Source: an uncultured Desulfovibrionaceae bacterium
GTDB lineage: Bacteria > Bacillota > Dethiobacteria > DTU022 > UBA8154
Assembly: GCA_964603615.1 (NCBI GenBank)
Contig: CAZRVU010000006.1
Span: 12,249-76,248, forward strand
DNA: 64,000 bases
Direction: 5' to 3'
Shown: positions 18,812-59,568 of the stretch, in pieces
Position numbering within the stretch: position 1 is the stretch's first letter
Layout of the letters: every line of letters starts with the position of its first letter
Notes under the pieces: generated by a model
Seen by the model: the letters and a program-made list of their open reading frames with translations, nothing else
Told to the model about the DNA's origin: nothing
Database searches by the model: none
Translations under genes and position numbers: made by a program

Positions 18812-18826
18812 CTTTTATTCCCCCGG

Positions 18827-21220: not shown

Positions 21221-21264
21221 CTGTCATTTAATAATTAATTCGAAATAATAAAATGGAGATCTGG

Positions 21265-21732: not shown

Positions 21733-22745
21733 ATCCCTCCCGCTTTTTTTAAGGCTTCTGTGATCACGATTTTAGCAATTTCCCGCTTGTAACGCGGAGA
21801 AATAAGAGAGGTCTTAATAGGATGTATCTCAGAAGCAGCTATTTGGGCCACCTTAGACAGCAAGTTCATTTCCAACTCCTGCTGCAAAAGCTCTTTCCGT
21901 GCTCTTACCGCTATCACTGGCGCCGGTTCTGCACCGGTAATCACCAGGCAAGCGTCTGCACATATTACTCCATTTACTCCATGCTTCCCTGGTTTTCCGT
22001 TTGCAAGTTTAAGCATTACCGCAACCCCCAACACTGGGAAATCAATGGACTCCCGCATCCTAAATTTTTGATAAATACAATTCACCTGCGGTGTGGGCAG
22101 CGGCACTTCAATACCCGTTAGGATTTCTCCGCTACCCGCCATAATTTTATGAGGATTGCGGCCTTCTGCGGTGTAGAATTGATCTAAAGGCAGGGTTCTC
22201 GTTCCTTCTGGGCCTGCCAAACGAATTTTAGCACCGTAAGCGATTAAAACCGGCGGCAGATCTGCCGAAAAAGTCGCCACGCAACTTCCCTTTTTATTAG
22301 TTACATGGCAAATATCTCCCCCGGCCTTAAAACACTTTTCTCGTGTTGAACGCCAAAATTGCGATTGATTATAGAAGCGACATCTCGTATTCAGACAAAC
22401 ATTGCCACCAATCGTGGCTAGAGGACGTAAAAGCGGGGAGCCGACTTCCCGGGCTGCATGTTTTAAGGCTGGAAATTTTTCTGCAACCAAATCTGAACAA
22501 AGAAGATCCTCCAAAGTGCACATTGCGCCAATTACAAGCAAGCCGTTTTCTTCTTTAATTTCCTTCAAGGATAAAATTTTATCGAGACTGAGCAGGCCGG
22601 ACGGGGTAATCAATCTCTGCTTTAAAGCCGTCAATAAATCCGTTCCCCCGGCAATAATCTGGTAATTATCCTTCAATTCCCCAACCTTGGCCACTGCCTC
22701 CCCTAAACTTTCCGGTTCGAAATAATCGAATTCTAACAACCGCAC
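21729..22745 (-). CDS. FAD-binding subunit with an HcrB-type [4Fe-4S] insertion
   Basis: IAGGTDL, ATIGGNVC, insertion CLNTRCRFYNQSQFWR...CFKAGGDICHV...CVATFSAD, KFRMRESIDF. Confidence 0.88.
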   Translation of the reverse strand: MRLLEFDYFEPESLGEAVAKVGELKDNYQIIAGGTDLLTALKQRLITPSGLLSLDKILSLKEIKEENGLLVIGAMCTLEDLLCSDLVAEKFPALKHAAREVGSPLLRPLATIGGNVCLNTRCRFYNQSQFWRSTREKCFKAGGDICHVTNKKGSCVATFSADLPPVLIAYGAKIRLAGPEGTRTLPLDQFYTAEGRNPHKIMAGSGEILTGIEVPLPTPQVNCIYQKFRMRESIDFPVLGVAVMLKLANGKPGKHGVNGVICADACLVITGAEPAPVIAVRARKELLQQELEMNLLSKVAQIAASEIHPIKTSLISPRYKREIAKIVITEALKKAGGI

Positions 22746-23019: not shown

Positions 23020-25224
<2,205 letters not shown>

Positions 25225-25581: not shown

Positions 25582-26646
25582 ATGTACGGGGAGCTTACTG
25601 TACCGGAAGCAATTAATCTACCTTTCGCAGTCTTTGTCGACCTGCGTTCCCCGGTCGAATACGCGCGAGGTTCCATCCCAGGCGCTTTGAATATCCCGCT
25701 TTTTAGCGATTCAGAGCGCGAAACAATTGGTTTACACTACAAAAAAGATCGGCAGGGCGCCCGTCTAACAGGCCTGAATTTTATAGCTTCCAGACTTCCA
25801 GAAATAATGGATAAAATTTATAGCCTGGGTGCGCATAAAATACCTGTTTTATATTGCTGGAGAGGAGGCCTGCGTAGTAAAAGCTTTTATAATTTGCTGG
25901 CCGCTTCGGGTATCCCCGCTTATAGGTTGCCCGGCGGTTACAAAGCTTATAGGCGTTATATTCTAGATCAGTTGGCTGTATATGAACTTCAAAAACCGCT
26001 CTTTGTACTAAACGGGTTAACCGGCACCGGTAAAACAAAAATTTTGCACCTGCTGCTAACCAGGGGTTGCCCGGGTATTGACCTGGAAAAACTGGCCTGT
26101 CACCGGGGCTCGCTTTTCGGCCATTTAGGTTTTAAGCATAAACGCGGCCAAAAAGATTTTGATGCCCATTTATGGAGCTGTTTGCATCAACATCGAAATG
26201 CACCCTACTTGTTATTTGAGGGTGAGGGGAAAAGGATTGGACCCGTTTACCTGCCGCCTTTTCTCTTTAAGGCAATGCAAAAAGGAACACATATCCTTTT
26301 GACTGCTCCCTTGGCAAAAAGAGTGGAACGACTGCTACAAGAATACACCCCCTCCTCCCTGCAAGATGAAAGCGAACAAATCGAAGGGGCTATACAATCC
26401 CTAAAAAAATACCTGGGAACAAAAACCGTTGACTATTTCCTATCACTATTAAAACAAAAAAATTATGCCGAACTGGTTAGCTCTCTTTGTCAACTTTATT
26501 ATGATCGTCTTTACAGTGAATCAAAACCGGAACAGACCAATTTTGTCCTAACCGTGGATAGCAGCAATCTCCAAAAAGCGACAGACATAATTCAGGATTA
26601 TGTTCAGCAAAAGTTGAATAAAAACAGGATAAAAACACCTGTTTAA
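25582..26646 (+). CDS. mnmH: tRNA 2-selenouridine synthase (SelU/MnmH)
   Basis: Rhodanese VDLRSP.EY..GSIPGALNIPLF, YCWRGGLRS, P-loop GLTGTGKT, IDLE.LA.HRGS.FG, EGEGKRIG. Confidence 0.95.
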   Translation: MYGELTVPEAINLPFAVFVDLRSPVEYARGSIPGALNIPLFSDSERETIGLHYKKDRQGARLTGLNFIASRLPEIMDKIYSLGAHKIPVLYCWRGGLRSKSFYNLLAASGIPAYRLPGGYKAYRRYILDQLAVYELQKPLFVLNGLTGTGKTKILHLLLTRGCPGIDLEKLACHRGSLFGHLGFKHKRGQKDFDAHLWSCLHQHRNAPYLLFEGEGKRIGPVYLPPFLFKAMQKGTHILLTAPLAKRVERLLQEYTPSSLQDESEQIEGAIQSLKKYLGTKTVDYFLSLLKQKNYAELVSSLCQLYYDRLYSESKPEQTNFVLTVDSSNLQKATDIIQDYVQQKLNKNRIKTPV

Positions 26647-41660: not shown

Positions 41661-43100
41661 TTAGCCTCCTCCCCCCTCCCCTTTGATTACAGCTAAGGGA
41701 GTAAGACGGGCCACTTTTTTAATGATGCCAATTTCGGCCAGGGTATCAACGACGGCATCGATATCTTTGTAAGCACGGGGTGCTTCGTCCAAGATGTTTG
41801 TTTCCCTATCCCCATAAAAAATGATGGAGCCTAGCTGTTCCCGTAACATTTCCACGGTGATTTGCCGGCGCGCTTCACGCCGCGACATTACTCTGCCAGC
41901 TCCATGGTTCACAGAATAAAAAGTTTCCAACACCTGGGGGGTAGCAACAATGATGTAAGAAGAAGTACCCATGCTACCCGGAATAAAAACCGGATGGCCA
42001 CAGGAACGGTAGGCCGCCGGGTTGTCACGGTGCTTCGGGGGCAAAGCGCGGGTTGCACCTTTGCGGTGGATTAAAAGTTTACGCCCCTCCACTTCCTCAT
42101 ATTTGGCAATGTTATGAGCTACATCATAGACTACCCCCAAATCCATCTCCGTAGCGCTACAGTCAAAATAATCACTAAATGCTTCCCTGACGTCATAAGT
42201 GATGATCTGACGGTTGGCAAAAGCAAAGTTGATGGCGGCAGACATAGCTGCAAAGTAATCCTTTCCTTCCGGGGAATGAATGGGCACAGCAGCCAGGCCG
42301 CGCGAGGGAAGCTCTAGCCCGTAGCGTGCCGCGCTTTTTTCCATAATAGCAGAATAATCTGTGCAGATCTGATGCCCAAAGCCGCGACTACCGGTATGGA
42401 TAAGGATGCTTAAGCTACCATTTACTAGTTGAAATAATTTAGCACTTTCTTGATCATAGATCTCCGCTACCTTCCCCAGTTCAATAAAATGGTTACCGCC
42501 GCCAATTGTGGAAAGCTGGTTCCCACGTTTTTGAGCTTTTTTGCTAACCCGGGAAAGGTCAGCTCCAGGGAAAAAACCTTCTTCTTCCATAAAAAAGCGG
42601 TCTTCGGGGCGCGCATAGCCCAGCTTCAAAAGAACAGGAAAACCGGATTCAATAATCTCCTCAAAGTGCTGGCCCAGTCGTGCCTGGTGTTTACTGGTTT
42701 TTCCAATACCAGTTGGAACACGGGAGGCAATTTTCCGCAGCAAGTTTTCCAAATCTTTTTTTCTTAAACTATCAGCCCTAATTGCCGTGCGCAAAAGCCT
42801 TACACCACAGTTAATATCCATGCCCACTGCACCGGCAGAGATCAGGCCATCTGGTACCTTCATAGCCATCACCCCGCCTATTGGTAAACCGTAGCCGGAA
42901 TGAATATCAGGCATACCGAAGACGTACTTGTAAACCCCCGGCAAAGAAGCAGCATCACAAAGTTGTTCTAGGGATTCTTTTTCCAAATAATTTTCAAAAA
43001 GGAAATCATTTAAATATATTTTAACTTCAACCCGCATTTTCCCAAAACAGGGGATTCTATAACAATTTAAAGCATATTTTTCGATCTGCAAGACATTCAC
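41661..43100 (-). CDS. rtcB: RNA-splicing/repair ligase RtcB
   Basis: MPDIHSGYGLPIGG, VGMDINCGVRL, GGGNHFIE, IHTGSRGFGHQ, YDVAHN, HRKGATRA, PGSMG, HGAGR..SR, DEAP.AYKDI. Confidence 0.96.
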   Translation of the reverse strand: MNVLQIEKYALNCYRIPCFGKMRVEVKIYLNDFLFENYLEKESLEQLCDAASLPGVYKYVFGMPDIHSGYGLPIGGVMAMKVPDGLISAGAVGMDINCGVRLLRTAIRADSLRKKDLENLLRKIASRVPTGIGKTSKHQARLGQHFEEIIESGFPVLLKLGYARPEDRFFMEEEGFFPGADLSRVSKKAQKRGNQLSTIGGGNHFIELGKVAEIYDQESAKLFQLVNGSLSILIHTGSRGFGHQICTDYSAIMEKSAARYGLELPSRGLAAVPIHSPEGKDYFAAMSAAINFAFANRQIITYDVREAFSDYFDCSATEMDLGVVYDVAHNIAKYEEVEGRKLLIHRKGATRALPPKHRDNPAAYRSCGHPVFIPGSMGTSSYIIVATPQVLETFYSVNHGAGRVMSRREARRQITVEMLREQLGSIIFYGDRETNILDEAPRAYKDIDAVVDTLAEIGIIKKVARLTPLAVIKGEGGGG

Positions 43101-43961: not shown

Positions 43962-45311
43962 TCATTTAGTCAGTTTTTGTGCCCTTGGAGGTATTTCAAA
44001 AAGAATTCTTTCTTCATCCAAAGTTAATAACCGTCCATTCTCCATCAATACCTGCCCGTCGACCATCACTAAAAATACATCGGCTGCTGCAGCACTGTAA
44101 ACCAGGTGGGCCAGAAGGTTATGTGCCGGGTAAAAATGCGGTTTGTTGAATTTGAGCACAGCCAGATCCGCCTTAGCGCCCACTTTAAGTTGGCCCGTCT
44201 CCACGGGAAGAAAAAGGGCGCGGGCCCCGTTAAGTGTAGCCATTTTAAAAGCTGTTTCCGCAGGTATCACGGTAGGATCCTCCAGCCGGCCTTTCTGTAA
44301 CAGCGCAGCCAACCTCATTTCTTCTAATAGATCAAGATTATTGTTGCTAGCAGCCCCATCCGTGCCCAGCGAGATCAAAACTCCCTTTTGCAGCAACTCC
44401 GCCAAAGGGGCCAGGCCACTACCCAATTTTAAATTGCTACCTGGATTATGTGCAATTGCCACATTATTTGCAGCCAGCAGCTCTATTTCCGCTGCTGAAA
44501 GGTGTACACAGTGTGCAGCCAGGAGGTTATGTTCCAGTAAACCAACCTCATGAGCCAGCTCGACCGGGGTTTTTCCGTATTTCTGGCGTGATTCCTCCAC
44601 TTCCGTGCGGGTTTCCGCCAGGTGAATATGAATGGGCACTTCTAGCTCACCGGCCAACTCCCCGACTTTACGCAGGTAGTCCGGGGGGCAAGTATAAGGG
44701 GCGTGCGGCCCCAACATGACGGTTATTCTCCCTTCACCCTGTTTATGCCAGTTTTGAACCAGAGTTCTGCTTTCCCTGAGCCCAAGTGCTCCTTTTATTT
44801 TATCCATCCCCACAAGACCCTGGGCAAGGGAAACCCTGATGCCACTTTCCAGACAGGCACGTGCCACTTCTTCCATATGAAAATACATGTCGGCAAAACA
44901 GGTGGTTCCCCCTTTTAGCATTTCGGCAATGGCTAACAATGTCCCCCAGTAAATATCTTCTTTTTTTAATTTTGCTTCTGCCGGCCAGATTTTATTTTGC
45001 AACCATTCCTGCAAAGAAAGATCGTCGGCAAAACCCCGAAAAAGAGTCATGGCAGCGTGGGTATGGGTATTGATGAAACCTGGTATGACCAGACTGTCCC
45101 GGATAGCGAGCACCCTGGCAAATTTTACAGCGGGGCGCTCCTGACGAGGCCCTAGATAAGTAATCCGACTATCCTCAATTATCATTTCCGCCTGGGATAA
45201 AACTTTTAGTTCTTCATCCCAGGTTAGAATATAATCTGCTTGTAGAAGTATCTCCCCCGTCACTTTAATCATCTCCTCTTGCAGTGCAATTTTGCCGATC
45301 ATGCTGACCAT
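43962..45311 (-). CDS. mtaD: MTA/SAH deaminase (amidohydrolase, MtaD-like); true start probably a few codons inside
   Basis: PGFINTHTH, GGTTCFADMYF, GPHAPYT, HIHLAET, AHNPGSNLKLGSG, LGTDGAASNN. Confidence 0.85.
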   Translation of the reverse strand: MVSMIGKIALQEEMIKVTGEILLQADYILTWDEELKVLSQAEMIIEDSRITYLGPRQERPAVKFARVLAIRDSLVIPGFINTHTHAAMTLFRGFADDLSLQEWLQNKIWPAEAKLKKEDIYWGTLLAIAEMLKGGTTCFADMYFHMEEVARACLESGIRVSLAQGLVGMDKIKGALGLRESRTLVQNWHKQGEGRITVMLGPHAPYTCPPDYLRKVGELAGELEVPIHIHLAETRTEVEESRQKYGKTPVELAHEVGLLEHNLLAAHCVHLSAAEIELLAANNVAIAHNPGSNLKLGSGLAPLAELLQKGVLISLGTDGAASNNNLDLLEEMRLAALLQKGRLEDPTVIPAETAFKMATLNGARALFLPVETGQLKVGAKADLAVLKFNKPHFYPAHNLLAHLVYSAAAADVFLVMVDGQVLMENGRLLTLDEERILFEIPPRAQKLTK

Positions 45312-45948
45312 AATGTAATAAAAAATTATTTTTTAAAGCTGCTACATCTTCCGGATTTAAAACATGGGGCTGCCCTAGCATTCTTGATAAAAGAATTATG
45401 CGGGCATTTCTTTCAATAACCCGGCAGCACCGCAGCGCTGAGGAAAGATCCGCCCCGATGCTGACCAATCCGTGGTTGGCCAAAAGAACGGCGTTGCCTT
45501 CCTCTCCCAATGCTGCCAGGGCATTGGCGGCTAGCTCCGAACTACCCGGCGGAGCATACGCGGCCACTTTGACTGCCCCGCCCACCACTTGGGCCTGTTC
45601 TTCCAGTGCCGGTGGGATCTCTACCCTGCTTACGGCAAAGGCGGTAGCATAAAGGCTATGCACGTGAACGATCGCCTGGCATTTATTTCTCTTTTTATAA
45701 ATCGCCAGGTGCAAGGGAAGCTCCGTCGAAGGTTTCCAACGACCTTTTAGAGTTTTCCCGGAAGCATCAACGTCAACCAGATCAAAATAGCGCAGTTGAT
45801 CATAAGGGATACCGCTGGGTGTAATCACTATGTGGTTTTCTGCCGGCCTACAACTAATATTGCCCCAGGTCTCAAAACCCAACTCTTCCCGGCAAATCTT
45901 GTAAGCAATATTAACCAGTTCCCTTTTTGCTTTTTCCACAGCGTTCAA
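45265..45948 (-). CDS. Class II aldolase, FucA/Ald2-like (candidate methylthio/5-deoxy-ribulose-1-P aldolase)
   Basis: WGNIS, ITPSG, PSTELPLHLAIY, HVHSLYAT, LLANHGL. Confidence 0.85.
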   Translation of the reverse strand: MNAVEKAKRELVNIAYKICREELGFETWGNISCRPAENHIVITPSGIPYDQLRYFDLVDVDASGKTLKGRWKPSTELPLHLAIYKKRNKCQAIVHVHSLYATAFAVSRVEIPPALEEQAQVVGGAVKVAAYAPPGSSELAANALAALGEEGNAVLLANHGLVSIGADLSSALRCCRVIERNARIILLSRMLGQPHVLNPEDVAALKNNFLLHYGQHDRQNCTARGDD

Positions 45949-47036
45949 GAAGTAACCCCCTTTTGCTGGATAAACTCCCTCAATTTCTTTTCACGCGGAA
46001 AAGGCAAAATACCATGTTCGGTAATCAATACCGTAATTAAATGGGCCGGGGTGATGTCGAAAGCCGGGTTTTTCGCCCGGGCCCGGGTGCCAGGTGGTGA
46101 AAGATTAATCCCTCTAAATGTAGTTATCTCCTGTGCCTCTCTCTCCTCCACAACAATATCTTTGCCGGAATTGATAGAAAGATCAATGGTAGAAAAAGGA
46201 ACAGCAACATAAAAAGGCAGGTTGTTGGCCTGGGCTAGAACAGCCAGCATATAAGTCCCGATCTTGTTTGCTACATCACCATTGGCAGCAACCCGATCCG
46301 CACCAACGATCACACAACTGATCTCCCTCTTGTGCATGAAGTAGCCGGCAGCGCTGTCCACAATTATGGAGAAGGGGATTCCTTCCTTTTGTAACTCCCA
46401 GGCGGTTAGGCGGGATCCCTGTAAAAAAGGCCTTGTTTCGCAAGCGTAAACGTGTTTGATTTTACCGGCATTATAAGCACTTTTAAGCACCCCGAGAGCT
46501 GTGCCATAACCTGCCGTGGCCAAAGCACCTGCGTTGCAATGTGTTAAAACATTGGCTGCAGCGCCAAACAACTTTACTCCCCATTGGCCGATTTTTTTAT
46601 TAATGCTGATATCCTCTTCATAAATTCGGAGAGCTTCTTGTTCAAGTTCTTGCCATAAAATATCCGGCGGAACCGCTTTTAAATCCCAACATTTGTTAAG
46701 CATTCTTTTAATTCCCCAGGCCAAATTAACGGCTGTCGGGCGGGTTGCCTGCAAAGCATCGCCAGTCAGCGTTAAATAATTGAACAGGTCGTCAAAGGAA
46801 AGGCTCTTTTCCTTTTTATCCTGCTCAAGAGTACAATTACGTGCGGCCAGCACCAAAGCAAAAGCAGCCGCCACCCCTATGGCCGGGGCACCACGCACAA
46901 CCATTTTCTGAATACACTCCTGGACATCTGCCGGGGTATAACAAGTTATATATATTTCTTTTTCCGGCAAAGCCCTTTGATCCAGTAGCTGCAGCATTTG
47001 ATCCTGCCATACCAGCGGGCGGATTTCTTCTGCCAA
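45945..47036 (-). CDS. mtnA: Methylthioribose-1-phosphate isomerase
   Basis: LLDQRALP, MVVRGAPAIG, TRPTAVNL, LTHCNAGALATAGYGTALG, ETRPFLQGSRLTAWEL, ANKIGTY, NPAFDITP. Confidence 0.97.
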   Translation of the reverse strand: MAEEIRPLVWQDQMLQLLDQRALPEKEIYITCYTPADVQECIQKMVVRGAPAIGVAAAFALVLAARNCTLEQDKKEKSLSFDDLFNYLTLTGDALQATRPTAVNLAWGIKRMLNKCWDLKAVPPDILWQELEQEALRIYEEDISINKKIGQWGVKLFGAAANVLTHCNAGALATAGYGTALGVLKSAYNAGKIKHVYACETRPFLQGSRLTAWELQKEGIPFSIIVDSAAGYFMHKREISCVIVGADRVAANGDVANKIGTYMLAVLAQANNLPFYVAVPFSTIDLSINSGKDIVVEEREAQEITTFRGINLSPPGTRARAKNPAFDITPAHLITVLITEHGILPFPREKKLREFIQQKGVTS

Positions 47037-47064
47037 ACTAATCTGCCTCCTTTTTCTGTAGGTC

Positions 47065-47859
47065 TTATTGTCCCAGGGGATAGTCTTCTTCCTGCCAACA
47101 ACAACATCTTCTCTCCGCCGGCAAGGAAATAAGTGTTTCCAGCAAAACCTCCCTAATTACAGCTAATTTTTCTTGCATCATTTCCACTACTTCCTGATGA
47201 TTGAGAGAGTTTGGTGATATTCCCGCCGCAAAATTAGTTACCAAAGAAAGATTGGCGTAGCATAAGCCAGCCTCCCGGGCAAGAGTGACCTCCGGCACAT
47301 TAGTCATGCCTACAAGATCGGCCCCCAGAAGAGCATAAGCTTTGATCTCCGCTGGTGTTTCATAACGCGGTCCTTCTGTACAGAGATAAGTTCCTTGCCC
47401 GGCATAATAGATATTTTTGCTGCTTAGTGTCGTTTTTAAATGTTCCCTGATCTGTGGACAGTAGGGATCGGTAAAATCGGTATGGACCACGCCTTTTTCG
47501 TCCCCACCGTCATAAAAGGTCTGCGGGCGATTTTTTGTAAAATCAATAAATTGATCGGTAATCACCAGTAACCCCGGCGTTAGCCGTTCCTGTAATGAAC
47601 CTACCGCTGTAGTCGACAGAACCCTTTGGACACCTATCTTTTTGAGGGCAGCAATATTGGCCCGGTAATTAATGCGGTGGGGAGGTAGGGCATGCTGCTT
47701 TCCATGACGGGCTAAAAAAACCAGGGGTACACCCCGATATGTGCCGGCAATCAACAGTGCCTCTCCAAAAACTGTTTTGATTGTGAGCTCCCGGCTGTCT
47801 TGCAAAATGCCAGGATGGTAAAAGCCTGTTCCCCCGATAACAGCCAGATTAATCTCCAT
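47065..47859 (-). CDS. mtaP: MTA/MTI phosphorylase (start at ATG 47859)
   Basis: AVIGGTG, FLARHG..H..PPH.INYRANI, AVGSL, HTDFTDPYCP, TEGPRYET.AE, DLVGMT. Confidence 0.92.
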   Translation of the reverse strand: MEINLAVIGGTGFYHPGILQDSRELTIKTVFGEALLIAGTYRGVPLVFLARHGKQHALPPHRINYRANIAALKKIGVQRVLSTTAVGSLQERLTPGLLVITDQFIDFTKNRPQTFYDGGDEKGVVHTDFTDPYCPQIREHLKTTLSSKNIYYAGQGTYLCTEGPRYETPAEIKAYALLGADLVGMTNVPEVTLAREAGLCYANLSLVTNFAAGISPNSLNHQEVVEMMQEKLAVIREVLLETLISLPAERRCCCWQEEDYPLGQ

Positions 47860-47910
47860 GATGAACACCCGGCAGCAAACAAACCGGGCTCCTCCCTTCA
47901 CCTGTAGTTT

Positions 47911-49155
47911 TTAAAAATCCCAACTTTTTAAATAGGTTTTTTGTTCTGTAGTTAGCGTATCGATATTGATCTTTAATGCTTTTAATTTTAGCCGGGCCAC
48001 TTCCCGGTCCAGCTCTGGCGGTAGCAGTAATACCTCATTGGGTAAACGCCCTTTATTGTCCAGAAGGTATTTTAAAGCCAAAACCTGCAAACCGAAAGAT
48101 AGATCCATGATCTCTATAGGGTGACCATCAGCAGCAACTAAATTAACTAACCGCCCTTCTCCAAGTAAATATAGGCGCCGCCCATCAGGGAAAGTATAGG
48201 CCTCCACGTTTTGACGGGCCGGGCGGGGTGGGCCGGTTGATTCAACCAGAGATTCCTTATCAATTTCGATGTCAAAATGCCCGGCATTACACAGGATGGC
48301 ACCATCTTTCATCACTGCAAAATGCGGTGCGCTTAATACTTTACTGCATCCGGTAACCGTAATAAAAATATCTCCCTGCGCAGCAGCCTGCAACAAAGAT
48401 AGAACCTGGTGGCCATCCATATGTGCTTCCAAAGCCTTGATCTCATCCACTTCACAGACGATCACTTTGGCCCCCAAACCTTTGGCTCTAAGGGCAACCC
48501 CTTTTCCGCACCAGCCATAGCCAATCACAACTACATTTTTTCCGGCAACGATCATGTTTGTCGAGCGCATGATCCCATCCCAAACCGACTGGCCTGTACC
48601 ATAACGGTTGTCAAAAAGGTGCTTACAACGCGCGTCATTGACGGCAATCATAGGAAAACCCAGGGCTTTTTCCCCGGCCATAGACCGTAATCTGAGCAAA
48701 CCCGTGGTTGTTTCTTCTGCACCTCCAATTATTTGGGGAATATCCCGGGAAAATTTTTTATGCAACAGTGAAACCAGATCGCCCCCATCATCGATGATCA
48801 AATGGGGTTTTGTAGCAGCAGTTCGATAAAGGTGCTCTTTGTATTCTTCCGGCGTAGCTCCATGCCAGGCAAAAACCTCCACCCCTTCCCGGGCTAAAGC
48901 AGCAGCCACATCATCTTGAGTCGAGAGAGGGTTACTACCGGTAACAACAACTTTTGCGCCAGCGGCCTGAAGAGTCAGAGCCATAAAGGCTGTTTTAGCT
49001 TCCAAATGGATACATACGGCAATTTTTTGCTCTTTAAAGGTTTTATTTTGTCGCAAAACGTTCCACAATTCCTGCAAGATGGGCATGTGTTCCCGGGCCC
49101 AGGCTATTTTTACCAGTCCCTGGGGGGCAAGATTCTTTTCTCTTATTAATGACAA
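47911..49155 (-). CDS. ahcY: S-adenosylhomocysteine hydrolase
   Basis: HLEAKTA, SNPLSTQDDVAAAL, DDGGDL, EETTTG, FDNRYGTGQS, GYGWCGKG, GEGRLVNL..A.GHP. Confidence 0.97.
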   Translation of the reverse strand: MSLIREKNLAPQGLVKIAWAREHMPILQELWNVLRQNKTFKEQKIAVCIHLEAKTAFMALTLQAAGAKVVVTGSNPLSTQDDVAAALAREGVEVFAWHGATPEEYKEHLYRTAATKPHLIIDDGGDLVSLLHKKFSRDIPQIIGGAEETTTGLLRLRSMAGEKALGFPMIAVNDARCKHLFDNRYGTGQSVWDGIMRSTNMIVAGKNVVVIGYGWCGKGVALRAKGLGAKVIVCEVDEIKALEAHMDGHQVLSLLQAAAQGDIFITVTGCSKVLSAPHFAVMKDGAILCNAGHFDIEIDKESLVESTGPPRPARQNVEAYTFPDGRRLYLLGEGRLVNLVAADGHPIEIMDLSFGLQVLALKYLLDNKGRLPNEVLLLPPELDREVARLKLKALKINIDTLTTEQKTYLKSWDF

Positions 49156-49546: not shown

Positions 49547-50158
49547 CTAGATATTAATCAGCTTCGTTGCCAGTGCCATTTTTTCTGTAGTGCCATACAT
49601 ATCTGTAACTGTTCCAACAACAAGTTTGTCCTGTAATTCAAAAAAGTTCAAGCAGGTGCCACAGGAAAGTATAACGGTACCCTTTTCCTCCAAAGTTTTC
49701 AAGTCTTCAATAGTGTTAGAACCTTCTGTGGTTAAGTAAACCCCTGTATTAAAAAAAATAAGGTATTGGGGATGATTTTCAAGTTCTGTCAATGAATATA
49801 TAAAGCTTTTCATTAATATTTTTCCCAGTTCATTAGAGCCTGAACCCATATAATTGCTACCGATTGTTACTACCAGGGACTCCGAAGGATCTTTATCCTC
49901 ACGCTTTTCCTTATCTTCCGGTATATCTTTTATTAAATTTGGATGATCCAAGCCTATAAAGGTTTTAAAAGAATTCTCCGCAATCTTCTCATAGGAAAAA
50001 TCATAGCCTTCGCTAGTTGCCATCTTTTTTAAATTTTCTACTGCAGCCATATTGTCTATTAAGAATATAGTCTTTTCTCCACCAGTTTTTGCCAAGGTTT
50101 TTTTTGCCTCAATCACCGGTATAGGACATGGTTTCCCGGATAAATCAATTGTTTTCAT
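49547..50158 (-). CDS. yedF: Selenium metabolism sulfurtransferase-like protein YedF (TusA + DsrE domains)
   Basis: IDLSGKPCPIPVIEAKK, MGSGSNELGKILMKSFIYSL, N.GV.L, SCGTCLNFF, VG.VTDMY. Confidence 0.9.
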   Translation of the reverse strand: MKTIDLSGKPCPIPVIEAKKTLAKTGGEKTIFLIDNMAAVENLKKMATSEGYDFSYEKIAENSFKTFIGLDHPNLIKDIPEDKEKREDKDPSESLVVTIGSNYMGSGSNELGKILMKSFIYSLTELENHPQYLIFFNTGVYLTTEGSNTIEDLKTLEEKGTVILSCGTCLNFFELQDKLVVGTVTDMYGTTEKMALATKLINI

Positions 50159-50188
50159 AATAAACACCCCTTTTAAAAATTTATTTTT

Positions 50189-50482
50189 TCAATCAATATC
50201 TTCCTGTACCAATAAATCTTTATCTGTTATTTCTGTATATGTTGGCTTACTTACACCATTTTTTAACGTTCTAGTATATAATGAAGTTTCATGAATATTT
50301 AGCTTATCCAATATATCAAGGGCAGACCTTATTTCATCGGCACGAATCCTTAAGGTAATTCCACAGCCAGCTTTTATTTGCGGCGGCAATGGAAAAACCC
50401 CTGCATGAAGATTGTTGTCTAGAAAGTTTTGCTCTGCTTTAATGGCTAAATTTGTACTTTCAAATATTATAATATATTCCAT
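50189..50482 (-). CDS. DUF3343 domain protein
   Basis: IIFESTNLAIKAE...LPPQIKAGCGITLR; typical companion of yedF. Confidence 0.82.
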   Translation of the reverse strand: MEYIIIFESTNLAIKAEQNFLDNNLHAGVFPLPPQIKAGCGITLRIRADEIRSALDILDKLNIHETSLYTRTLKNGVSKPTYTEITDKDLLVQEDID

Positions 50483-50483
50483 G

Positions 50484-51614
50484 TTACTGCCCCGTCGATT
50501 CCACAATGTTTTTGACTGCCGAAATACCCATCTTTATTTCTTCTTCCGTATTAAAATAAGAAAAGGAGAACCTTACCAGCCCTGATTCTACAGTATTAAA
50601 ATGTTTATGCAGCAATGGAGCACAATGGCTCCCGGGCCTGGTAGCAATGCTGTACTTGTTCCAAAGCTCTGCCGAAAAATCCGATGCACTTATGCCTTCT
50701 ACCTTAATCGAGACTACCGCCAGTCTGTTTCGAGTTTTAAAATTTCCATAGATTTCTACATTTTCAATCTCTTTAATGCCATTATAAAATATTCTTGCTA
50801 GATTCTCTTCTTTTTTGTGTATCTTATCTACCCCCATAGAATTAATAAAGCTGGCTCCTTTTTGCAGTCCATAAAGACCAGGGCAGTTTAAAGTACCGGC
50901 TTCAAAAACGTCAGGCATAGTCTTAGGTTGTAATTTTTCAAAACTATTTACCCCGGTGCCTCCTGTTTTCACAATCTTAAAATCAAAATCTCCATTAACT
51001 ATAATACCTCCTGTACCCTGGGGCCCAAATAAACTCTTGTGACCTGTAAAGCAAAAAATATCCGCCATACCTAAATTCACCGGATAGGCACCAAAGGTTT
51101 GGCTAACATCTAAAATCATCATAATATTATTCTTTTTGCATAACCTATATAATTTTTCTGCATCTGTCACATTTCCTGTTACATTGGAGCCATGGGTACA
51201 AATCAAAAATTTTGTAGAAGGATTTATCAATTCCTCAAAGGTATCAATCAGTATGTTTCCCTCATCATCACAATCCATAAATACTATGTCGCATTCTTTT
51301 AGATATAATGGCCTTAAAACAGAATTATGTTCTGTTGTAGTTGTAATTACTGTATCTTCTTTTTTGACCAAACTATTGATTACCAGATTAAAGCTTTCTG
51401 TGGCAGAATATGTAAAGGCTACTTTTAAGGGATCCTCTAAACCGATTAGTTTTGCAATTTCAGCCCGGGTGCGATAAATTTCTCTATTAGCATGCATAAC
51501 TGCATCATAAAAGGAACGCCCCGGGTTTCCAAAATTGGCAATGGCATAGGCTACTGCTTCTCCAACCTCTGCCGGTTTCCTTAAAGTTGTAGCACTATTA
51601 TCAAAGTAAATCAT
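50484..51614 (-). CDS. Cysteine desulfurase family protein (selenocysteine lyase-like)
   Basis: MIYFDNSATT..KP, GNPGRS, EHNSVLRP, HGSNVTG, FTGHKSLFGPQGTGG, RPGSHCAP.LH, VRFSFSYFNT. Confidence 0.9.
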   Translation of the reverse strand: MIYFDNSATTLRKPAEVGEAVAYAIANFGNPGRSFYDAVMHANREIYRTRAEIAKLIGLEDPLKVAFTYSATESFNLVINSLVKKEDTVITTTTEHNSVLRPLYLKECDIVFMDCDDEGNILIDTFEELINPSTKFLICTHGSNVTGNVTDAEKLYRLCKKNNIMMILDVSQTFGAYPVNLGMADIFCFTGHKSLFGPQGTGGIIVNGDFDFKIVKTGGTGVNSFEKLQPKTMPDVFEAGTLNCPGLYGLQKGASFINSMGVDKIHKKEENLARIFYNGIKEIENVEIYGNFKTRNRLAVVSIKVEGISASDFSAELWNKYSIATRPGSHCAPLLHKHFNTVESGLVRFSFSYFNTEEEIKMGISAVKNIVESTGQ

Positions 51615-54779: not shown

Positions 54780-55706
54780 TTAAGATAGTTTATAAGAAAA
54801 AAAAGGGTTGTTATCCTCAATAATGCGCTTTTCCCGGGCGCGCATCACCCGTATATCTTTTGTTAAGGAAAAAAGGTTGAGGTGGGTGAGGCCATCATAA
54901 AATTGCAAACCCTGAACGCTTCTTTTATTCAGCCTGTCGTCGATAAAAGAAGGCTGACAGTCCTGCGCAGAGTAATCCTGTGAAGCGTAAATAAAACCCC
55001 ATTTGGAATCAAAAGAAGGGATATAAGCACCATAAGAATCAACATATTTAAAGGCGAGTTTAAGGGTATTATAAAGTGAGCTATGATATTGTAACAGCCT
55101 GGGGTTTAAATCATCGGCTTGTAAGGCAATCCCGCCCTTGGTTTTAACCCTTTGCGCCACTAACTGGTAAAATTCTTTAGTAAAAAGTAAATAAGAAGGA
55201 CTATCATGATCAAGGGGTTCAGTTAAATCAACAATGATGACATCCCACTTTTCATCATTATCCTCCAGGTATTTTCGTGCATCCATAAAGTGGACCTTAA
55301 CCCGTGGATCTTCAAAAACCCCCTGATTCCAGGCAGGCAAATATTTTTGACAAAGCTCTACAACATCCCGGTCAATATCAACCATGACCAGTTTTTCCAC
55401 AGAAGGGTGCCTAAGAATTTCCCTTAAAGCTGCCCCCTCTCCCCCACCCACCACCAGGACTTTTCTGGGCAAAGGATGGATAACCATGGCTGGATGAACC
55501 AACGCCTCATGATAAATATATTCATCAAACTGCGCCGATTGAATCTTTCCATTTAAAATGAGACAGCGGCCAAAAAAATCCGTATCAACAATCTCTATAC
55601 TTTGAAATGGTGTCTGCCCATCGTAAACATATCGTTCTATGCCATACATGTGAGCCTGGCTGGGATGCGTATACTCGATAAACCATTTCCCAGTAAAAGG
55701 TGACAA
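54780..55706 (-). CDS. speE: Polyamine aminopropyltransferase (spermidine synthase)
   Basis: TPFQ.IEI, DEYIYHEALVHP, VLVVGGGEG, VDID..VV, DVIIVDLTEP. Confidence 0.95.
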   Translation of the reverse strand: MSPFTGKWFIEYTHPSQAHMYGIERYVYDGQTPFQSIEIVDTDFFGRCLILNGKIQSAQFDEYIYHEALVHPAMVIHPLPRKVLVVGGGEGAALREILRHPSVEKLVMVDIDRDVVELCQKYLPAWNQGVFEDPRVKVHFMDARKYLEDNDEKWDVIIVDLTEPLDHDSPSYLLFTKEFYQLVAQRVKTKGGIALQADDLNPRLLQYHSSLYNTLKLAFKYVDSYGAYIPSFDSKWGFIYASQDYSAQDCQPSFIDDRLNKRSVQGLQFYDGLTHLNLFSLTKDIRVMRAREKRIIEDNNPFFSYKLS

Positions 55707-55898
55707 GTTAAGGCCTCCTTAATAAATAAAATTTTGGAGAAACGCATAACAGATTCGCTCCCCAAAAGCCCTTTTCATTACAATTTCATTTAGATAGCAG
55801 CTTATTATGGGGATCCTTTGAGCCAAAACCGTTGCCGGTAAAACTTCTCAGATTTGAACCATAAATAACAATTTTGTTCAAAGTACCAACAAGTTACA

Positions 55899-56300
55899 TT
55901 AAACAGCAGATTTTTGCGGGGTAAAATCTGTTTCAATTTCGTTCAACTCGAAAATGCCGCGTTTTATTTCCTTGGCCGCCATCCGTTCAGCTATAAAGTG
56001 CCTTTTTAAATAGTAACAAGACACCCAGGGATCAACAGTAGTCCCGCACGTAAAAACATCCACCGCAGCGTACCCGAATTCCGGCCAGGTATGAATAGCC
56101 AGATGCGATTCGGAAATCACCACTACGCCGCTTACCCCTTGAGGAGCAAATTTATGGAAGACAACTTCCCTTACCTCAGCTCCAGCTTCCAGGGCTGCTT
56201 TTTTCATAATTTGCTCAATCTGGGCCGTGTTATTTAATAGATCTGAAGAACACCCATAAAATTCAGCCAGAACATGGCGGCCTAAAGCGCGCATTTTCAA
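55899..56300 (-). CDS. speD: S-adenosylmethionine decarboxylase proenzyme
   Basis: [50 protein letters not shown]. Confidence 0.97.
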
Positions 56301-57457: not shown

Positions 57458-57706
57458 TCATTTTCCCATACGTATTCTACCACTGCTGCCTGGCAAAGTC
57501 AACAATTTTAACGTTTAACAGCATCTACTTTAAATTTACCCCATTAACGCATTGCCTTTACGGCATTGTCCTTACAATCGGGCATAAGCATAGCAAACTT
57601 ATAAATTCCTTAAGTTTAAAAACTTTGTGTTTAGAAATGCATCAATACAATCGGGCAGAATTACTATTTGTTGCTTAAAAGAATTACCACGCACGGCAGT
57701 ATTTCA

Positions 57707-57925
57707 TCAGACACCTCAACCCAGGCCATGATAGCCAATCGACTTGACCTTCCCATTTTCCACTAATACAGGCACAATGCCGGCATTGTACTTTTCCTTA
57801 ATTTCTTTCAACGCACTGTTGTCATTGCTAACATTATACAATTGATATGTAAGGCCCTCCTGCTCCAACTGTTCAATTTGTTTCCGGCAATGGGGGCACC
57901 CCTCCTTAATATATAGCTCAAGCAT
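57707..57925 (-). CDS. Glutaredoxin-like selenoprotein (Uxx-stop type); TGA at 57718-57716 read as Sec
   Basis: MLELYIKEGCPHCRKQ...VPVLVENGKVKSIGYHGLG-TGA-GGT-GTC-TGA-TGA; the C-terminal U-x-x-stop pattern matches the known Uxx-star glutaredoxin-like family. Confidence 0.8.
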
Positions 57926-58155: not shown

Positions 58156-58902
58156 TCATAGGATTGAGGAGTCCTTGTCTTCAGACATGGTAACCAGCTT
58201 TACACCCCTGCCACGAAATTGGCTGAAGATTATTCCTTCCGAAACAAGCCTAAGTACAGTCTCCGGCCCGGTAACCATCGTTCCTGAAACCAGGTCCACG
58301 CCGTAATTGAACCATACAGGGGAAAGCGGAGTTGTCGGGCCCAAGACCATTACCAGTGCATCGCTGCGGCAAAGAGCCAACAACCTGTCCATGGTATCGT
58401 TAATCAGAGCAGTGCCGGTAATGGCCAGCACATCGGACTGCGGGATAATCTGTTCAGCTTCTTCTGCCGGTAAATCACCGATCCGGGGATGCCTTTCTAG
58501 AACCCACAGTTCCCCTGCTTCTTTTTTCAAATCGGTAACAAAAGGGAAATGGCCTACCACGCAAACTTTTTTGCCCTTTCCCTTTTGGAAAAGAACTTCC
58601 GAAGCATTAACCTGCCGACAACAGTTAAGGTCTACCTCCATCAAGGAATTTATGGCGGCTAGCCCGACACTGCGCTCCAGCAAACTTCCGCTAAGGACAT
58701 ATGCACATAGTTCAAGCGCCGTTTTTTCTTTCAGACGGCCCGCGTCACGCACCGGTGGACCAGAACTGTGATCACGCTCAGTGATAGTTGAAGCCAGGCC
58801 GCAATGCCGGGTCCAAACTGCTGTCCAGGAAGATCCTACCCTTACATCTTTTACAGGGGCATCTTCTTTCAATGTAGAGATAATATCCTCAATTATTTTC
58901 AA
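58156..58902 (-). CDS. DUF364 family protein (Rossmann-like, putative metal chelation)
   Basis: GLASTI, ERSVGLAAINSL, VVGHFPF, ITGTALIN.T...LL, VLGPTTPL. Confidence 0.85.
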   Translation of the reverse strand: MKIIEDIISTLKEDAPVKDVRVGSSWTAVWTRHCGLASTITERDHSSGPPVRDAGRLKEKTALELCAYVLSGSLLERSVGLAAINSLMEVDLNCCRQVNASEVLFQKGKGKKVCVVGHFPFVTDLKKEAGELWVLERHPRIGDLPAEEAEQIIPQSDVLAITGTALINDTMDRLLALCRSDALVMVLGPTTPLSPVWFNYGVDLVSGTMVTGPETVLRLVSEGIIFSQFRGRGVKLVTMSEDKDSSIL

Positions 58903-59142: not shown

Positions 59143-59568
59143 TTAGAACCTACCGGCACCTCCCCCTCTACCACCGCCACGTCCTCCTCCCCTGCCCCCT
59201 TCTCTTCCAAGACCAAAATTGGTCGAAACCGTTGAATTAGAAAGAAGGTTTAATTTACCCTGTTGATATTGTTTGATTGTATCAGCAACTGTTTCACTGA
59301 TTCCGGTATAAACTTTAACGCCCCCTGCATTTAGTGCATTAAAAGCTTTTGGCCCAACATTTCCAGCAAGAACCACATCTACTCCTTTGTTTACCAGCAC
59401 CTGTGTCGCCTGGACACCGGCTCCCCCCGGCGCTGCCACACTGGGGTTGGGGATGGATTCAAATTCCTCAAAGTCTTCACTTACCAAAACAAAATAGTCA
59501 CATCGTCCGAAACGCTGATCCACCAAGCTATCAAGACCTGGCCCTTGAGAACAAACTGCAATTATCAA
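59143..59568 (-). CDS. NifB/NifX family Mo-Fe cluster-binding protein with a Gly/Arg-rich tail
   Basis: VDQRFGRCDYF, GGAGVQATQ, GNVGPKAFNALNAGGVKVY, tail GRGGGRGGGRGGG. Confidence 0.9.
   Translation of the reverse strand: MIIAVCSQGPGLDSLVDQRFGRCDYFVLVSEDFEEFESIPNPSVAAPGGAGVQATQVLVNKGVDVVLAGNVGPKAFNALNAGGVKVYTGISETVADTIKQYQQGKLNLLSNSTVSTNFGLGREGGRGGGRGGGRGGGAGRF

What the first reader, a model, noticed from the sequence alone, without database searches (positions are those of the whole stretch)
57707..57925. Hidden selenoprotein: glutaredoxin-like CPHC protein ending GLG-U-G-V-stop
Seen: the track ORF stops at TGA (57718-57716) immediately after the Gly-rich GYHGLG. It is followed by GGT GTC and a double TGA TGA. 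Established: a family of small glutaredoxin-like proteins ends in C/U-x-x-stop (Uxx-star), reminiscent of the penultimate Sec of mammalian thioredoxin reductase. The window also has selU and a yedF cluster, which indicate selenophosphate use. Inference: a 72-aa protein with an N-terminal CxxC and a C-terminal Sec redox tail, which standard callers truncate. Its substrate is unknown.
Basis: partly seen in the sequence, partly recalled or inferred. Interest (0 to 1): 0.75.

Follow-up and report, generated by a model that had tools for sequence, protein, structure and literature searches.

The report
Truncated glutaredoxin-like selenoprotein, Uxx-star family
A small glutaredoxin-like gene that gene callers end at a TGA almost certainly reads that TGA as selenocysteine and stops two codons later; the protein family is already described, so this is a correct call and an annotation fix rather than a discovery.

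Summary
On the minus strand, ATG 57925 opens MLELYIKEGCPHC…GYHGLG, followed by TGA (57718-57716), GGT, GTC, TGA (57709-57707) and TGA.

Comparative evidence strongly supports selenocysteine:
- In the window plus 33 relatives, the first stop is TGA in 34 of 34. Exactly two sense codons follow, the second always Ile, Val or Leu with synonymous variation.
- The true stop then varies (TAA 16, TGA 13, TAG 5).
- A hairpin with a conserved CGUGN loop sits 17-22 nt after the UGA and shows compensatory base changes.
- A covariance model built without the window puts its best hit in the whole window exactly there.
- Distant homologues carry Cys at that column, two of them as C-x-x-stop.

The best family match is NCBIfam NF041212, Uxx-star glutaredoxin-like (seleno)protein. 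The score is 61 bits against a cut-off of 66, and relatives score 56-81. Public records that carry a name call this clade "glutaredoxin family protein" (68-69 aa), so they truncate it.

selU and a yedF cluster are in the window. selA, selB, selD and tRNA-Sec are not, so Sec decoding in this genome is untested.

Function is inferred only. Relatives sit beside csoR-copA, CDF exporters or DUF364, which points to soft-metal or redox handling.

Verdict: a new member of a known kind, of modest interest.

The parts
57707..57925 (-). Full coding sequence of the 72-aa glutaredoxin-like selenoprotein: MLELYIKEGCPHCRKQIEQLEQEGLTYQLYNVSNDNSALKEIKEKYNAGIVPVLVENGKVKSIGYHGLGUGV, plus the true stop
   Evidence: Sequence. 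The ATG 57925 start is inferred from the 68-69 aa homologues, nearly all of which begin at this position (M-L/I-E/D-L-Y). Pfam Glutaredoxin PF00462 scores 45.9 bits. NF041212 Uxx_star scores 61 bits.
57887..57898 (-). CPHC active-site motif (residues 10-13) at the N-terminus of helix 1
   Evidence: C10 and C13 are invariant in 26 close homologues. C10 is invariant across Sec and Cys forms. The AF2 model places helix 1 at residues 11-23.
57716..57718 (-). In-frame UGA read as selenocysteine (residue 70), in the motif G-L-G-U
   Evidence: TGA in 34 of 34 loci. Cys occupies this column in P0027-30, P0043, P0051, P0054, P0059 and P0062.
57710..57715 (-). Two-codon tail, Gly-Val, after the Sec codon
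   Evidence: The second tail codon is ATC 16, ATT 13, GTC 1, GTT 1, CTG 1, ATA 1. All encode Ile, Val or Leu, with a variable wobble base. The first tail codon varies but is always a sense codon.
57707..57709 (-). True stop codon (TGA here); a second in-frame TGA follows at 57704-57706
   Evidence: The stop position is fixed in all 34 loci while its identity varies: TAA 16, TGA 13, TAG 5.
57683..57703 (-). SECIS-like hairpin in the 3' UTR. 5' arm 57703-57696, loop CGUGC 57695-57691, 3' arm 57690-57683. The loop starts 20 nt after the UGA.
   Evidence: The hairpin appears in the single-sequence MFE fold. The family alignment and spacing are, and covariation. Model R1, built without the window, has its best hit in the window at 57705-57681 (-), 15.8 bits.
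58156..58902 (-). Upstream neighbour on the same strand: a DUF4213 + DUF364 protein ('putative heavy-metal chelation')
   Evidence: Pfam PF04016 143.5 bits and PF13938 67.3 bits. The same neighbour lies upstream in L009, L013 and L016.
25582..26646 (+). tRNA 2-selenouridine synthase MnmH (SelU). Context only: it implies use of selenophosphate.
   Evidence: NF008750 352.6 bits against a cut-off of 241.
49547..51614 (-). Selenium-metabolism cluster (context only): cysteine desulfurase / SclA-like gene (50484-51614), Se/S-carrier-like small ORF (about 50192-50482), YedF (49547-50167)
   Evidence: TIGR03527 YedF 205.8 bits against a cut-off of 110. TIGR01977 376.1 bits against a cut-off of 377. 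PF11823 57.6 bits.

Best explanation
The gene encodes a 72-aa selenoprotein of the Uxx-star glutaredoxin-like family, not the 69-79 aa product that gene callers report.

Decoding: the UGA at 57718-57716 is decoded as selenocysteine. A small hairpin lies wholly in the 3' UTR, with its loop (CGUGC) starting 20 nt after the UGA. It would recruit SelB carrying Sec-tRNA. Translation then adds Gly-Val and ends at the next stop.

Structure: the protein is a minimal thioredoxin fold (strand-helix-strand-helix-strand-strand) that lacks the usual C-terminal helix. That helix is replaced by a short glycine-rich coil ending in G-U-G-V.

Inferred mechanism: the coil leaves strand 4 beside the cis-Pro loop and the CPHC site. 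The selenol could therefore pair with Cys10, with Cys13 as the resolving or third ligand. This would give a three-chalcogen centre that either cycles through a selenenylsulfide or binds a soft metal ion.

Inferred function: from the neighbourhoods of relatives, I think the most likely role is redox or metal handling tied to heavy-metal efflux. Examples are keeping transporter cysteines reduced or passing Cu(I)-type ions to them.

What is shown and what is inferred: UGA conservation, tail translation, the hairpin with covariation, Cys/Sec pairing at the column and the fold are shown here. Actual selenium insertion, the Cys10-Sec70 interaction and the metal-related role are inferred.
For: 1. TGA is the first stop in 34 of 34 species-level loci. 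The downstream stop varies (TAA 16, TGA 13, TAG 5) at a fixed position. TGA is the least-used stop in the window, 10 of 53 genes.

2. Coding periodicity continues past the TGA. The second tail codon is always Ile, Val or Leu, with a conserved first and second base and a variable wobble base. Information content then drops to about 0.1-0.3 bits in the spacer.

3. The hairpin sits at a fixed distance, with its loop 17-22 nt after the UGA and mostly 20 nt. For the 8-pair helix, 84% of cells are paired and 7 pairs show changes on both sides. The covariation score is 0.46 against 0.20 for shuffles (0 of 500 reach it), and slid registers give at most 0.22. The loop G is invariant and the loop U is present in 28 of 33.

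4. A covariance model built from the 32 other sequences ranks 57705-57681 (-) first among both strands of the 64-kb window, at 15.8 bits.

5. Cys aligns with the UGA column in distant homologues. P0054 ends …GTCGV and P0062 ends …GRSCVL, both C-x-x-stop.

6. NF041212 Uxx_star is the top NCBIfam hit and aligns to profile positions 2-70 of 70. Including the tail adds 5.6 bits. Relatives score 56-81 bits.

7. The AF2 model of residues 1-69 has mean pLDDT 86.6. It has four strands and two helices, with residues 64-69 as coil. The nearest solved folds are BC3987, Grx3, C. oremlandii Grx and NrdH.

8. The window contains selU and a YedF, Se/S-carrier, cysteine-desulfurase cluster.

9. Metal context: a 2xHMA CPC-type P1B ATPase lies within 6 kb in 10 of 35 loci, with csoR just upstream of it in 5. 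No stand-alone CopZ was found there. A CDF exporter lies convergently downstream in 10 loci. DUF364 lies upstream in 4 loci, including the window.
Against: - selA, selB, selD and tRNA-Sec are not in the 64-kb window. The rest of the genome could not be searched.
- The window protein scores 61 bits, 5 below the NF041212 cut-off.
- The window's hairpin is one of the weaker copies, with two G·U pairs and one A·A mismatch. Its model E-value over the whole window is only about 0.08.
- Single-sequence folding of the 76-nt region is no better than shuffles, z = 0.36.
- Rfam reports nothing here.
- The metal association is partial and lineage-structured. The copA-adjacent genes are separated by gaps of 100-520 nt, and the CDF genes are convergent, so no operon is shown. 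In the window itself the only metal-flavoured neighbour is a domain of unknown function.
Confidence: 0.87

Rival explanations
1. The TGA is an ordinary stop, and the protein is a 69-aa YruB/NrdH-like redoxin. On this view the conserved hairpin downstream is a transcription terminator or another 3' regulatory element.
For: Gene callers and public records end the protein at this TGA. A hairpin right after a stop is where an intrinsic terminator would be. Several copies, including the window's, have a T-run soon after the stem. Single-sequence folding is not significant. No Sec machinery is seen in the window.
Against: - An ordinary stop would drift among TAA, TAG and TGA, as the second stop does. 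Here it is TGA in 34 of 34.
- The two codons after it show amino-acid-level constraint, and a stop is kept at exactly +3 codons by three different codons.
- Most copies lack a T-run, and the terminator scan does not flag this hairpin.
- The loop sequence and its distance from the UGA are conserved.
- Cys occupies the column in homologues.
Confidence: 0.07
2. The UGA is read through, but not as selenocysteine. Examples would be near-cognate Trp or Cys insertion, or a reassigned genetic code. The product would be a 72-aa protein without selenium.
For: Translation past the UGA is supported by the data, but the inserted residue was not determined. The Sec machinery was not found in the window.
Against: - The window uses TGA as a normal stop in 10 of 53 genes, and long genes match their families end to end without internal TGA. 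The code is therefore not reassigned.
- A conserved hairpin with a G-U loop at SECIS distance is the signature of SelB-dependent decoding.
- The family's Cys/UGA alternation is the classic Sec signature.
- Selenium-utilisation genes are nearby.
Confidence: 0.04
3. It is a genuine selenoprotein, but a general-purpose disulfide or peroxide reductase recycled by thioredoxin reductase. On this view it has no specific link to metals, and the metal-transporter neighbours reflect inherited gene order.
For: - The nearest structures are thioredoxin-reductase-dependent small redoxins, BC3987 and NrdH.
- In the window the gene stands alone between a DUF364 gene and a tRNA-Pro gene.
- Eight loci have an alpha/beta hydrolase as the nearest downstream gene, and several have an MBL-fold gene upstream.
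- The CDF genes are convergent rather than co-transcribed.
Against: A heavy-metal gene is adjacent in 24 of 35 loci, and the type of gene and the arrangement both vary: copA upstream, copA downstream in L001, CDF, or DUF364. That is hard to explain by inherited synteny alone. The copA loci lack a CopZ nearby.
Confidence: 0.4

Closest known systems
NCBIfam NF041212, Uxx-star family glutaredoxin-like (seleno)protein. The narrower families are NF041114 (family 1), NF041211 (family 2), NF047338 (family 3) and the NF045501 HUGP/GUXX-star fusion.
   Same: About 70 aa on a glutaredoxin fold, with a redox motif at residue 10 and Sec or Cys exactly three residues before the stop, in a G-x-G-U context. 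It is the top-scoring model and aligns to the very end. The review PMC13188914 lists these families as predicted selenoproteins with a possible metal-ligand role.
   Different: The window protein scores 61 bits, under the 66-bit cut-off. It falls far below the cut-offs of families 1, 2 and 3: 40 against 72, 38 against 100, and 39 against 97. It therefore belongs to a separate clade that straddles the superfamily threshold, with relatives at 56-81 bits. Public records that name this clade truncate it to 68-69 aa. According to the review, family 1 has a second Sec in a UxxT motif, whereas this clade has CPxC.
Small thioredoxin-reductase-dependent redoxins: Bacillus cereus BC3987 (PDB 3ZIJ) and NrdH (PDB 1H75, 4FIW). 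The YruB family, TIGR02196, is the related sequence family.
   Same: These are the best structural matches, with TM-score 0.79-0.81 and rmsd 1.7-2.0 Å over 64-67 residues. They have the same CxxC position and a similar size. TIGR02196 is the second-best sequence model, at 46.7 bits.
   Different: These proteins have no Sec and keep a C-terminal helix after strand 4. Here the chain ends in an 8-9 residue coil carrying the Sec. The TIGR02196 score is far below its cut-off of 88.55.
Selenoprotein glutaredoxin of Clostridium oremlandii and other UxxC-type Grx selenoproteins
   Same: A glutaredoxin fold in an anaerobic Bacillota organism that uses Sec. The Cys-homologue structures 4TR0 and 4TR1 are among the top fold matches.
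   Different: In those proteins the Sec replaces the first Cys of the N-terminal active site, in a U-x-x-C motif (PMC13188914). Their SECIS lies inside the coding region. Here the active site keeps both Cys residues, the Sec is in the C-terminal tail, and the SECIS is entirely in the 3' UTR.
C-terminal Gly-Cys-Sec-Gly tail of mammalian thioredoxin reductase
   Same: Sec lies near the C-terminus on a flexible glycine-rich tail that is thought to shuttle electrons to or from a CxxC-type centre. This rests on established knowledge and is an analogy only.
   Different: The fold and size are unrelated. The thioredoxin reductase tail has an adjacent Cys that forms the selenenylsulfide, and the Sec is the penultimate residue. 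Here the tail is G-U-G-V with no neighbouring Cys, so any partner must be Cys10 or Cys13. The decoding system is also different, being eukaryotic.
CopZ-type copper chaperones of csoR-copZ-copA operons
   Same: In five relatives the gene lies just downstream of a csoR-copA pair on the same strand. No stand-alone HMA protein was found within 6 kb. It offers two or three soft ligands.
   Different: The fold is different: thioredoxin fold rather than the ferredoxin-like HMA fold. There is no MxCxxC motif. No metal binding has been shown. In the window itself there is no copA nearby.

Membership tests
Uxx-star glutaredoxin-like (seleno)protein superfamily (NF041212) | Small (about 70 aa) glutaredoxin/thioredoxin-fold protein | tested here: met
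   PF00462 scores 45.9 bits against a cut-off of 22.9. The AF2 model has pLDDT 86.6 with strand-helix-strand-helix-strand-strand topology. Foldseek matches Grx and NrdH structures at TM-score about 0.8.
Uxx-star glutaredoxin-like (seleno)protein superfamily (NF041212) | Redox motif (CxxC, CxxT or UxxT) near residue 10 | tested here: met
   CPHC at residues 10-13. C10 is invariant across the Sec and Cys forms.
Uxx-star glutaredoxin-like (seleno)protein superfamily (NF041212) | UGA (Sec) or Cys exactly three residues before the stop codon | tested here: met
   TGA-GGT-GTC-TGA in the window. The same layout is present in 34 of 34 loci. C-x-x-stop is seen in P0054 and P0062.
Uxx-star glutaredoxin-like (seleno)protein superfamily (NF041212) | HMM score at or above the curated cut-off of 66 bits | tested here: not met
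   61.0 bits with U written as C. Ten relatives score 56.4-80.9 bits, and three of them are above the cut-off. The clade is continuous with the family, but the window protein falls just short.
UXX-star families 1, 2 and 3 (NF041114, NF041211, NF047338) | HMM score at or above the curated cut-offs of 72, 100 and 97 bits | tested here: not met
   40.3, 37.8 and 38.6 bits. The protein is not a member of any of the three named subfamilies.
Bacterial selenoprotein gene | SECIS hairpin a short, fixed distance 3' of the UGA, with G/U in the apical loop | tested here: met
   The loop lies 17-22 nt after the UGA. The helix shows covariation. The loop is CGUGN, with the G invariant. The leave-one-out model's top hit in the window falls at the expected place.
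Bacterial selenoprotein gene | Cys-containing homologues aligned at the UGA column | tested here: met
   P0027-30, P0043, P0051, P0054, P0059, P0062, P0100 and P0153.
Bacterial selenoprotein gene | selA, selB, selC (tRNA-Sec) and selD present in the same genome | not testable with these tools
   None was found in the 64-kb window, and the rest of the genome is not available. selU and yedF imply that selD is present, but not the Sec-decoding genes.
Bacterial selenoprotein gene | Selenium actually incorporated into the protein | not testable with these tools
   This needs 75Se labelling or mass spectrometry.
Classical glutathione-dependent glutaredoxin | C-terminal helix with the GG-x-DD glutathione-binding motif after strand 4 | tested here: not met
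   The model ends in coil after strand 4, which spans residues 59-63. The sequence there is IGYHGLGUGV. Grx equivalog models score 17-28 bits against cut-offs of 87-129.
Thioredoxin-reductase-type Sec tail | Gly-Cys-Sec-Gly at the C-terminus, with an adjacent Cys for the selenenylsulfide | tested here: not met
   The tail is G-L-G-U-G-V with no adjacent Cys. The resemblance is functional analogy only.

The most novel reading that the evidence does not exclude
In this clade the Cys10, Cys13 and Sec70 centre may be a selenium-containing soft-metal site. The protein would then act as a metallochaperone or a dedicated reductase for heavy-metal exporters. In csoR-copA operons of some Syntrophomonadaceae and related Bacillota MAGs it would take the place of CopZ. 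That would make it a selenoprotein component of copper or zinc homeostasis.
Probability: 0.25. Interest if true: 0.6.

Novelty: new member of a known kind. Interest (0 to 1): 0.3.

Why it matters
The practical result is an annotation correction. A whole clade is stored truncated at the Sec codon: at least 26 protein clusters, found in MAGs labelled Syntrophomonadaceae, Dethiobacteria or simply Bacillota. Those with a name are called "glutaredoxin family protein", because they score just under the NCBIfam cut-off. As a result, selenoproteome counts for these anaerobes are too low.

The locus is also a compact example of a bacterial SECIS lying entirely in the 3' UTR, behind a true stop only 9 nt from the UGA. 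That makes it useful as a test case for Sec-gene predictors.

The recurrent placement next to copA, csoR, CDF and DUF364 genes gives a concrete and cheap hypothesis for a family whose substrate is unknown.

Tried and rejected
- **Rfam.** A scan of the window at gathering thresholds found only tRNAs and no SECIS family at the site.
- **Single-sequence folding.** Folding the 76 nt after the UGA gave the hairpin, but the energy was no better than shuffles (z = 0.36). The hairpin claim therefore rests on comparative data.
- **Other selenoprotein genes in the window.** A scan for ORF pairs joined by one in-frame TGA found nothing convincing. The one near yedF is a separate Se/S-carrier-like gene that simply ends in TGA.
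- **tRNA-Sec.** None was found in the window or in 35 related loci. The 93-nt "tRNA-Gln" that ARAGORN called in L020 is not supported by Rfam and lies in coding-looking sequence, so it is a false positive.
- **Structure prediction with the tail.** Only residues 1-69 were modelled, and no coordinates are returned, so the Cys10-Sec70 distance could not be measured.
- **PDB sequence search.** The top hits were designed TIM barrels, through a repeated helical peptide, and are spurious. The real relatives are Grx3, A. fulgidus Grx and BC3987.
- **Primary literature.** The paper describing family 2 and the fusion family (Haft and Tolstoy 2025) is not held in the library. I could not check whether the copA or CDF association is already reported.
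- **Terminator reading of the hairpin.** Considered and rejected; see the rival explanations.
- **CopZ search.** The HMA query taken from L010 gave the same answer.

Full report
**1. The observation**

On the minus strand an ORF starts at ATG 57925 (MLELYIKEGCPHC…). It runs to GGC CTG GGT TGA (57718-57716), followed by GGT GTC TGA (57709-57707) and TGA. The mechanical ORF list ends it at the first TGA. The public protein entry for this sequence (P0001, 79 aa from an upstream TTG) is truncated at the same place. Nearly all of the 68-69 aa homologues begin at this position (M-L/I-E/D-L-Y), so ATG 57925 is the likely start.

**2. Evidence that translation continues past the TGA**

The 26 close homologues in the protein database all end at the same G-x-G. 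I fetched 37 loci from species-representative genomes and read the DNA.

- In the window plus 33 usable loci the first stop is TGA in 34 of 34.
- Exactly two sense codons follow.
- The next codon is a stop of varying identity: TAA 16, TGA 13, TAG 5.
- The second tail codon is ATC, ATT, GTC, GTT, CTG or ATA. That is always Ile, Val or Leu, with a conserved first and second base and a free wobble base.
- Information content then falls to about 0.1-0.3 bits per position in the spacer.

In the window itself TGA is the rarest stop, used by 10 of 53 genes. Long genes match their families end to end, so the genetic code is standard. An ordinary stop would have drifted the way the second stop has.

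**3. SECIS element**

Every locus has a hairpin after the true stop. Its consensus is caCCGC-CGUGA-GCGGug, and the loop starts 17-22 nt after the UGA, usually 20 nt.

On a gap-free alignment of 33 distinct sequences, an 8-pair helix is paired in 84% of cells. Seven pairs show changes on both sides. The covariation score is 0.46 against 0.20 ± 0.03 in shuffles, with 0 of 500 shuffles reaching it. Slid registers give at most 0.22. Clear compensatory versions include GAAC/GUUC (L031, L033), GCUGC/GCAGC (L032), AUCGC/GCGAU (L034) and GGGCGC/GCGCCC (L028).

A covariance model built without the window sequence was run unfiltered over both strands of the window. Its best hit is 57705-57681 (-), at 15.8 bits and a rough E-value of about 0.08. 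That is exactly where a SECIS should lie.

The window's copy is one of the weaker ones, with two G·U pairs and one A·A mismatch. Folding the single sequence is not significant on its own, and Rfam has no match. The hairpin is not flagged as a terminator, and most copies lack a T-run.

From general knowledge, bacterial SelB recognises a G-U in the apical loop at about this distance from the UGA, and the hairpin need not be translated.

**4. Cys/Sec pairing**

Distant homologues carry Cys at the UGA column. P0027-30 read …GRG-C-VVGWGS.

A profile search of 1.84 billion representatives returned many proteins of about 70 aa ending at G-x-G; I did not check their DNA for a TGA. It also returned Cys forms:

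- P0054 ends …GTCGV.
- P0062 ends …GRSCVL.
- Both are C-x-x-stop, and the first has the window's own G-V tail.

The Cys forms mostly have a CxxT N-terminal motif, whereas the forms ending at G-x-G have CPxC. The pair conserved throughout is Cys10 plus the C-terminal Cys or Sec.

**5. Family assignment**

With U written as C, the best NCBIfam model is NF041212, "Uxx-star family glutaredoxin-like (seleno)protein". It scores 61.0 bits and covers profile positions 2-70 of 70. The truncated form scores 55.4 bits, and the curated cut-off is 66. The three named subfamilies and the fusion family score far below their cut-offs.

Ten relatives score 56-81 bits, three of them above the cut-off. The clade is therefore continuous with the known superfamily but mostly falls just under the naming threshold. 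This would explain why the NCBI records among the hits are named "glutaredoxin family protein" at 68-69 aa.

A 2026 review lists UXX-star families 1 and 2 and the HUGP/GUXX-star fusion among predicted prokaryotic selenoproteins. It notes that their Sec may be a metal ligand or act on unknown substrates (PMC13188914). The primary paper, Haft and Tolstoy 2025, is not held.

**6. Fold**

AlphaFold2 on residues 1-69, using the 26-sequence alignment, gives mean pLDDT 86.6. The elements are strand 2-6, helix 11-23, strand 27-31, helix 36-45, strands 53-56 and 59-63, then coil. The usual third helix of glutaredoxins is absent, and the Sec tail stands in its place.

The nearest solved structures are B. 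cereus BC3987, E. coli Grx3, C. oremlandii Grx and NrdH, at TM-score about 0.8. No solved relative has the tail.

It is an inference from the known geometry of this fold that the tail can reach Cys10.

**7. Selenium context**

The window encodes MnmH/SelU at 25582-26646 (352.6 bits against 241). It also holds a cluster of three genes:

- a cysteine desulfurase / SclA-like gene at 50484-51614;
- an Se/S-carrier-like ORF at about 50192-50482;
- YedF at 49547-50167.

These imply use of selenophosphate. They do not establish Sec decoding. selA, selB, selD and tRNA-Sec are not in the window, and the rest of the genome is out of reach. No other split-by-TGA gene was found.

**8. Neighbourhood and likely role**

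In the window the gene sits between a DUF4213/DUF364 gene ("putative heavy-metal chelation") and tRNA-Pro. It has a 230-nt upstream gap that contains a terminator-like hairpin, so it probably has its own promoter. A NifX-like gene and spoVS lie further upstream.

Across the 35 loci:

- 10 have a P1B ATPase with two HMA domains and a CPC motif within 6 kb.
- In five of these a csoR-family gene lies just upstream of the ATPase. In four of the five (L004, L008, L010, L019) the order is csoR, copA, then this gene, on one strand; in L006 another gene lies between copA and this gene.
- 10 have a CDF exporter lying convergently just downstream.
- 4 have DUF364 upstream.
- 8 have an alpha/beta hydrolase just downstream.

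No stand-alone CopZ-like ORF lies within 6 kb of the copA loci. The association is partial and partly inherited, and it falls short of showing an operon. It does recur in different arrangements, and it agrees with the metal-ligand suggestion in the review.

I therefore favour a Cys-Cys-Sec centre that handles soft metals, or that keeps metal-transporter cysteines reduced. A general thioredoxin-reductase-linked reductase is the main alternative.

**9. Verdict**

- The thing itself is a new, systematically mis-annotated member clade of a family that is already described. It is not a new kind of system.
- The confidence that this is a genuine Sec-decoded Uxx-star protein is about 0.87.
- The confidence in a metal-linked role is much lower, at about 0.25 for a direct metal-site or chaperone function.

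Noticed in passing
L004, L008, L010, L019 (csoR, copA, then the Uxx-star gene on one strand); L006 and L018; also L001, L002, L005, L011: Relatives of the gene lie next to a copper-type P1B ATPase with two HMA domains and a CPC motif. In four loci the order is csoR, copA, Uxx-star gene; in L006 one gene intervenes, and in L018 copA is adjacent but no csoR was seen within the available flank. No stand-alone CopZ lies within 6 kb, so the selenoprotein sits where copZ usually is.
   Followed up: partly
L020-L023, L025-L028, L030, L032: A cation-diffusion-facilitator exporter (PF01545 + PF16916) lies convergently, 20-250 nt beyond the end of the Uxx-star gene, in ten loci. One of them is a contig binned as Desulfovibrio (L020).
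   Followed up: partly
window 49547-51614 (-): A selenium-metabolism cluster of three genes: a cysteine desulfurase family / SclA-like gene (376.1 bits against the TIGR01977 cut-off of 377), a PF11823 Se/S-carrier-like small ORF, and YedF. No selD or yedE is adjacent.
   Followed up: partly
window 18233-22745 (-): A three-subunit molybdenum hydroxylase of the xanthine dehydrogenase / 4-hydroxybenzoyl-CoA reductase type, with a TetR regulator. All subunits score below their equivalog cut-offs, so the substrate is unknown. With selU and yedF in the same window, a selenium-dependent Mo hydroxylase is conceivable but was not tested.
   Followed up: no
window 59143-59568 (-): A NifX / Nitro_FeMo-Co-domain protein (PF02579) ends in an unusual Arg-Gly repeat tail, GREGGRGGGRGGGRGGGAGRF. 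It lies two genes upstream of the selenoprotein gene. A homologue lies just downstream of the gene in L034 and upstream of it in L009.
   Followed up: no
window 23032-25224 (+): A full-length catalase-peroxidase KatG (1293 bits) lies next to selU, in what otherwise looks like an anaerobic spore-former (spoIIP, yqfD and spoVS are present).
   Followed up: no
window 43962-49155 and 54780-56300 (-): A block of methionine-salvage, SAM-cycle and polyamine genes: an MTA/SAH deaminase-like gene, a class II aldolase, MtnA, MTAP, AhcY, then SpeE and SpeH.
   Followed up: no
L020 3722-3814: ARAGORN calls a 93-nt tRNA-Gln(ttg) here. Rfam finds no tRNA, and the sequence looks like coding DNA, so this is probably a false positive.
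   Followed up: yes
window 24851-24880 (-): The second-best hit of the SECIS model (13.1 bits, E about 0.4) is an ACCGCCGU…GCGGU hairpin inside katG. No in-frame TGA precedes it, so I take it as chance.
   Followed up: partly
window 41661-43100 (-): The best NCBIfam match for this RtcB-family RNA ligase is an intein-containing RtcB model, but only over the C-terminal extein part (residues 97-474 against profile positions 578-961). No intein is evident.
   Followed up: no
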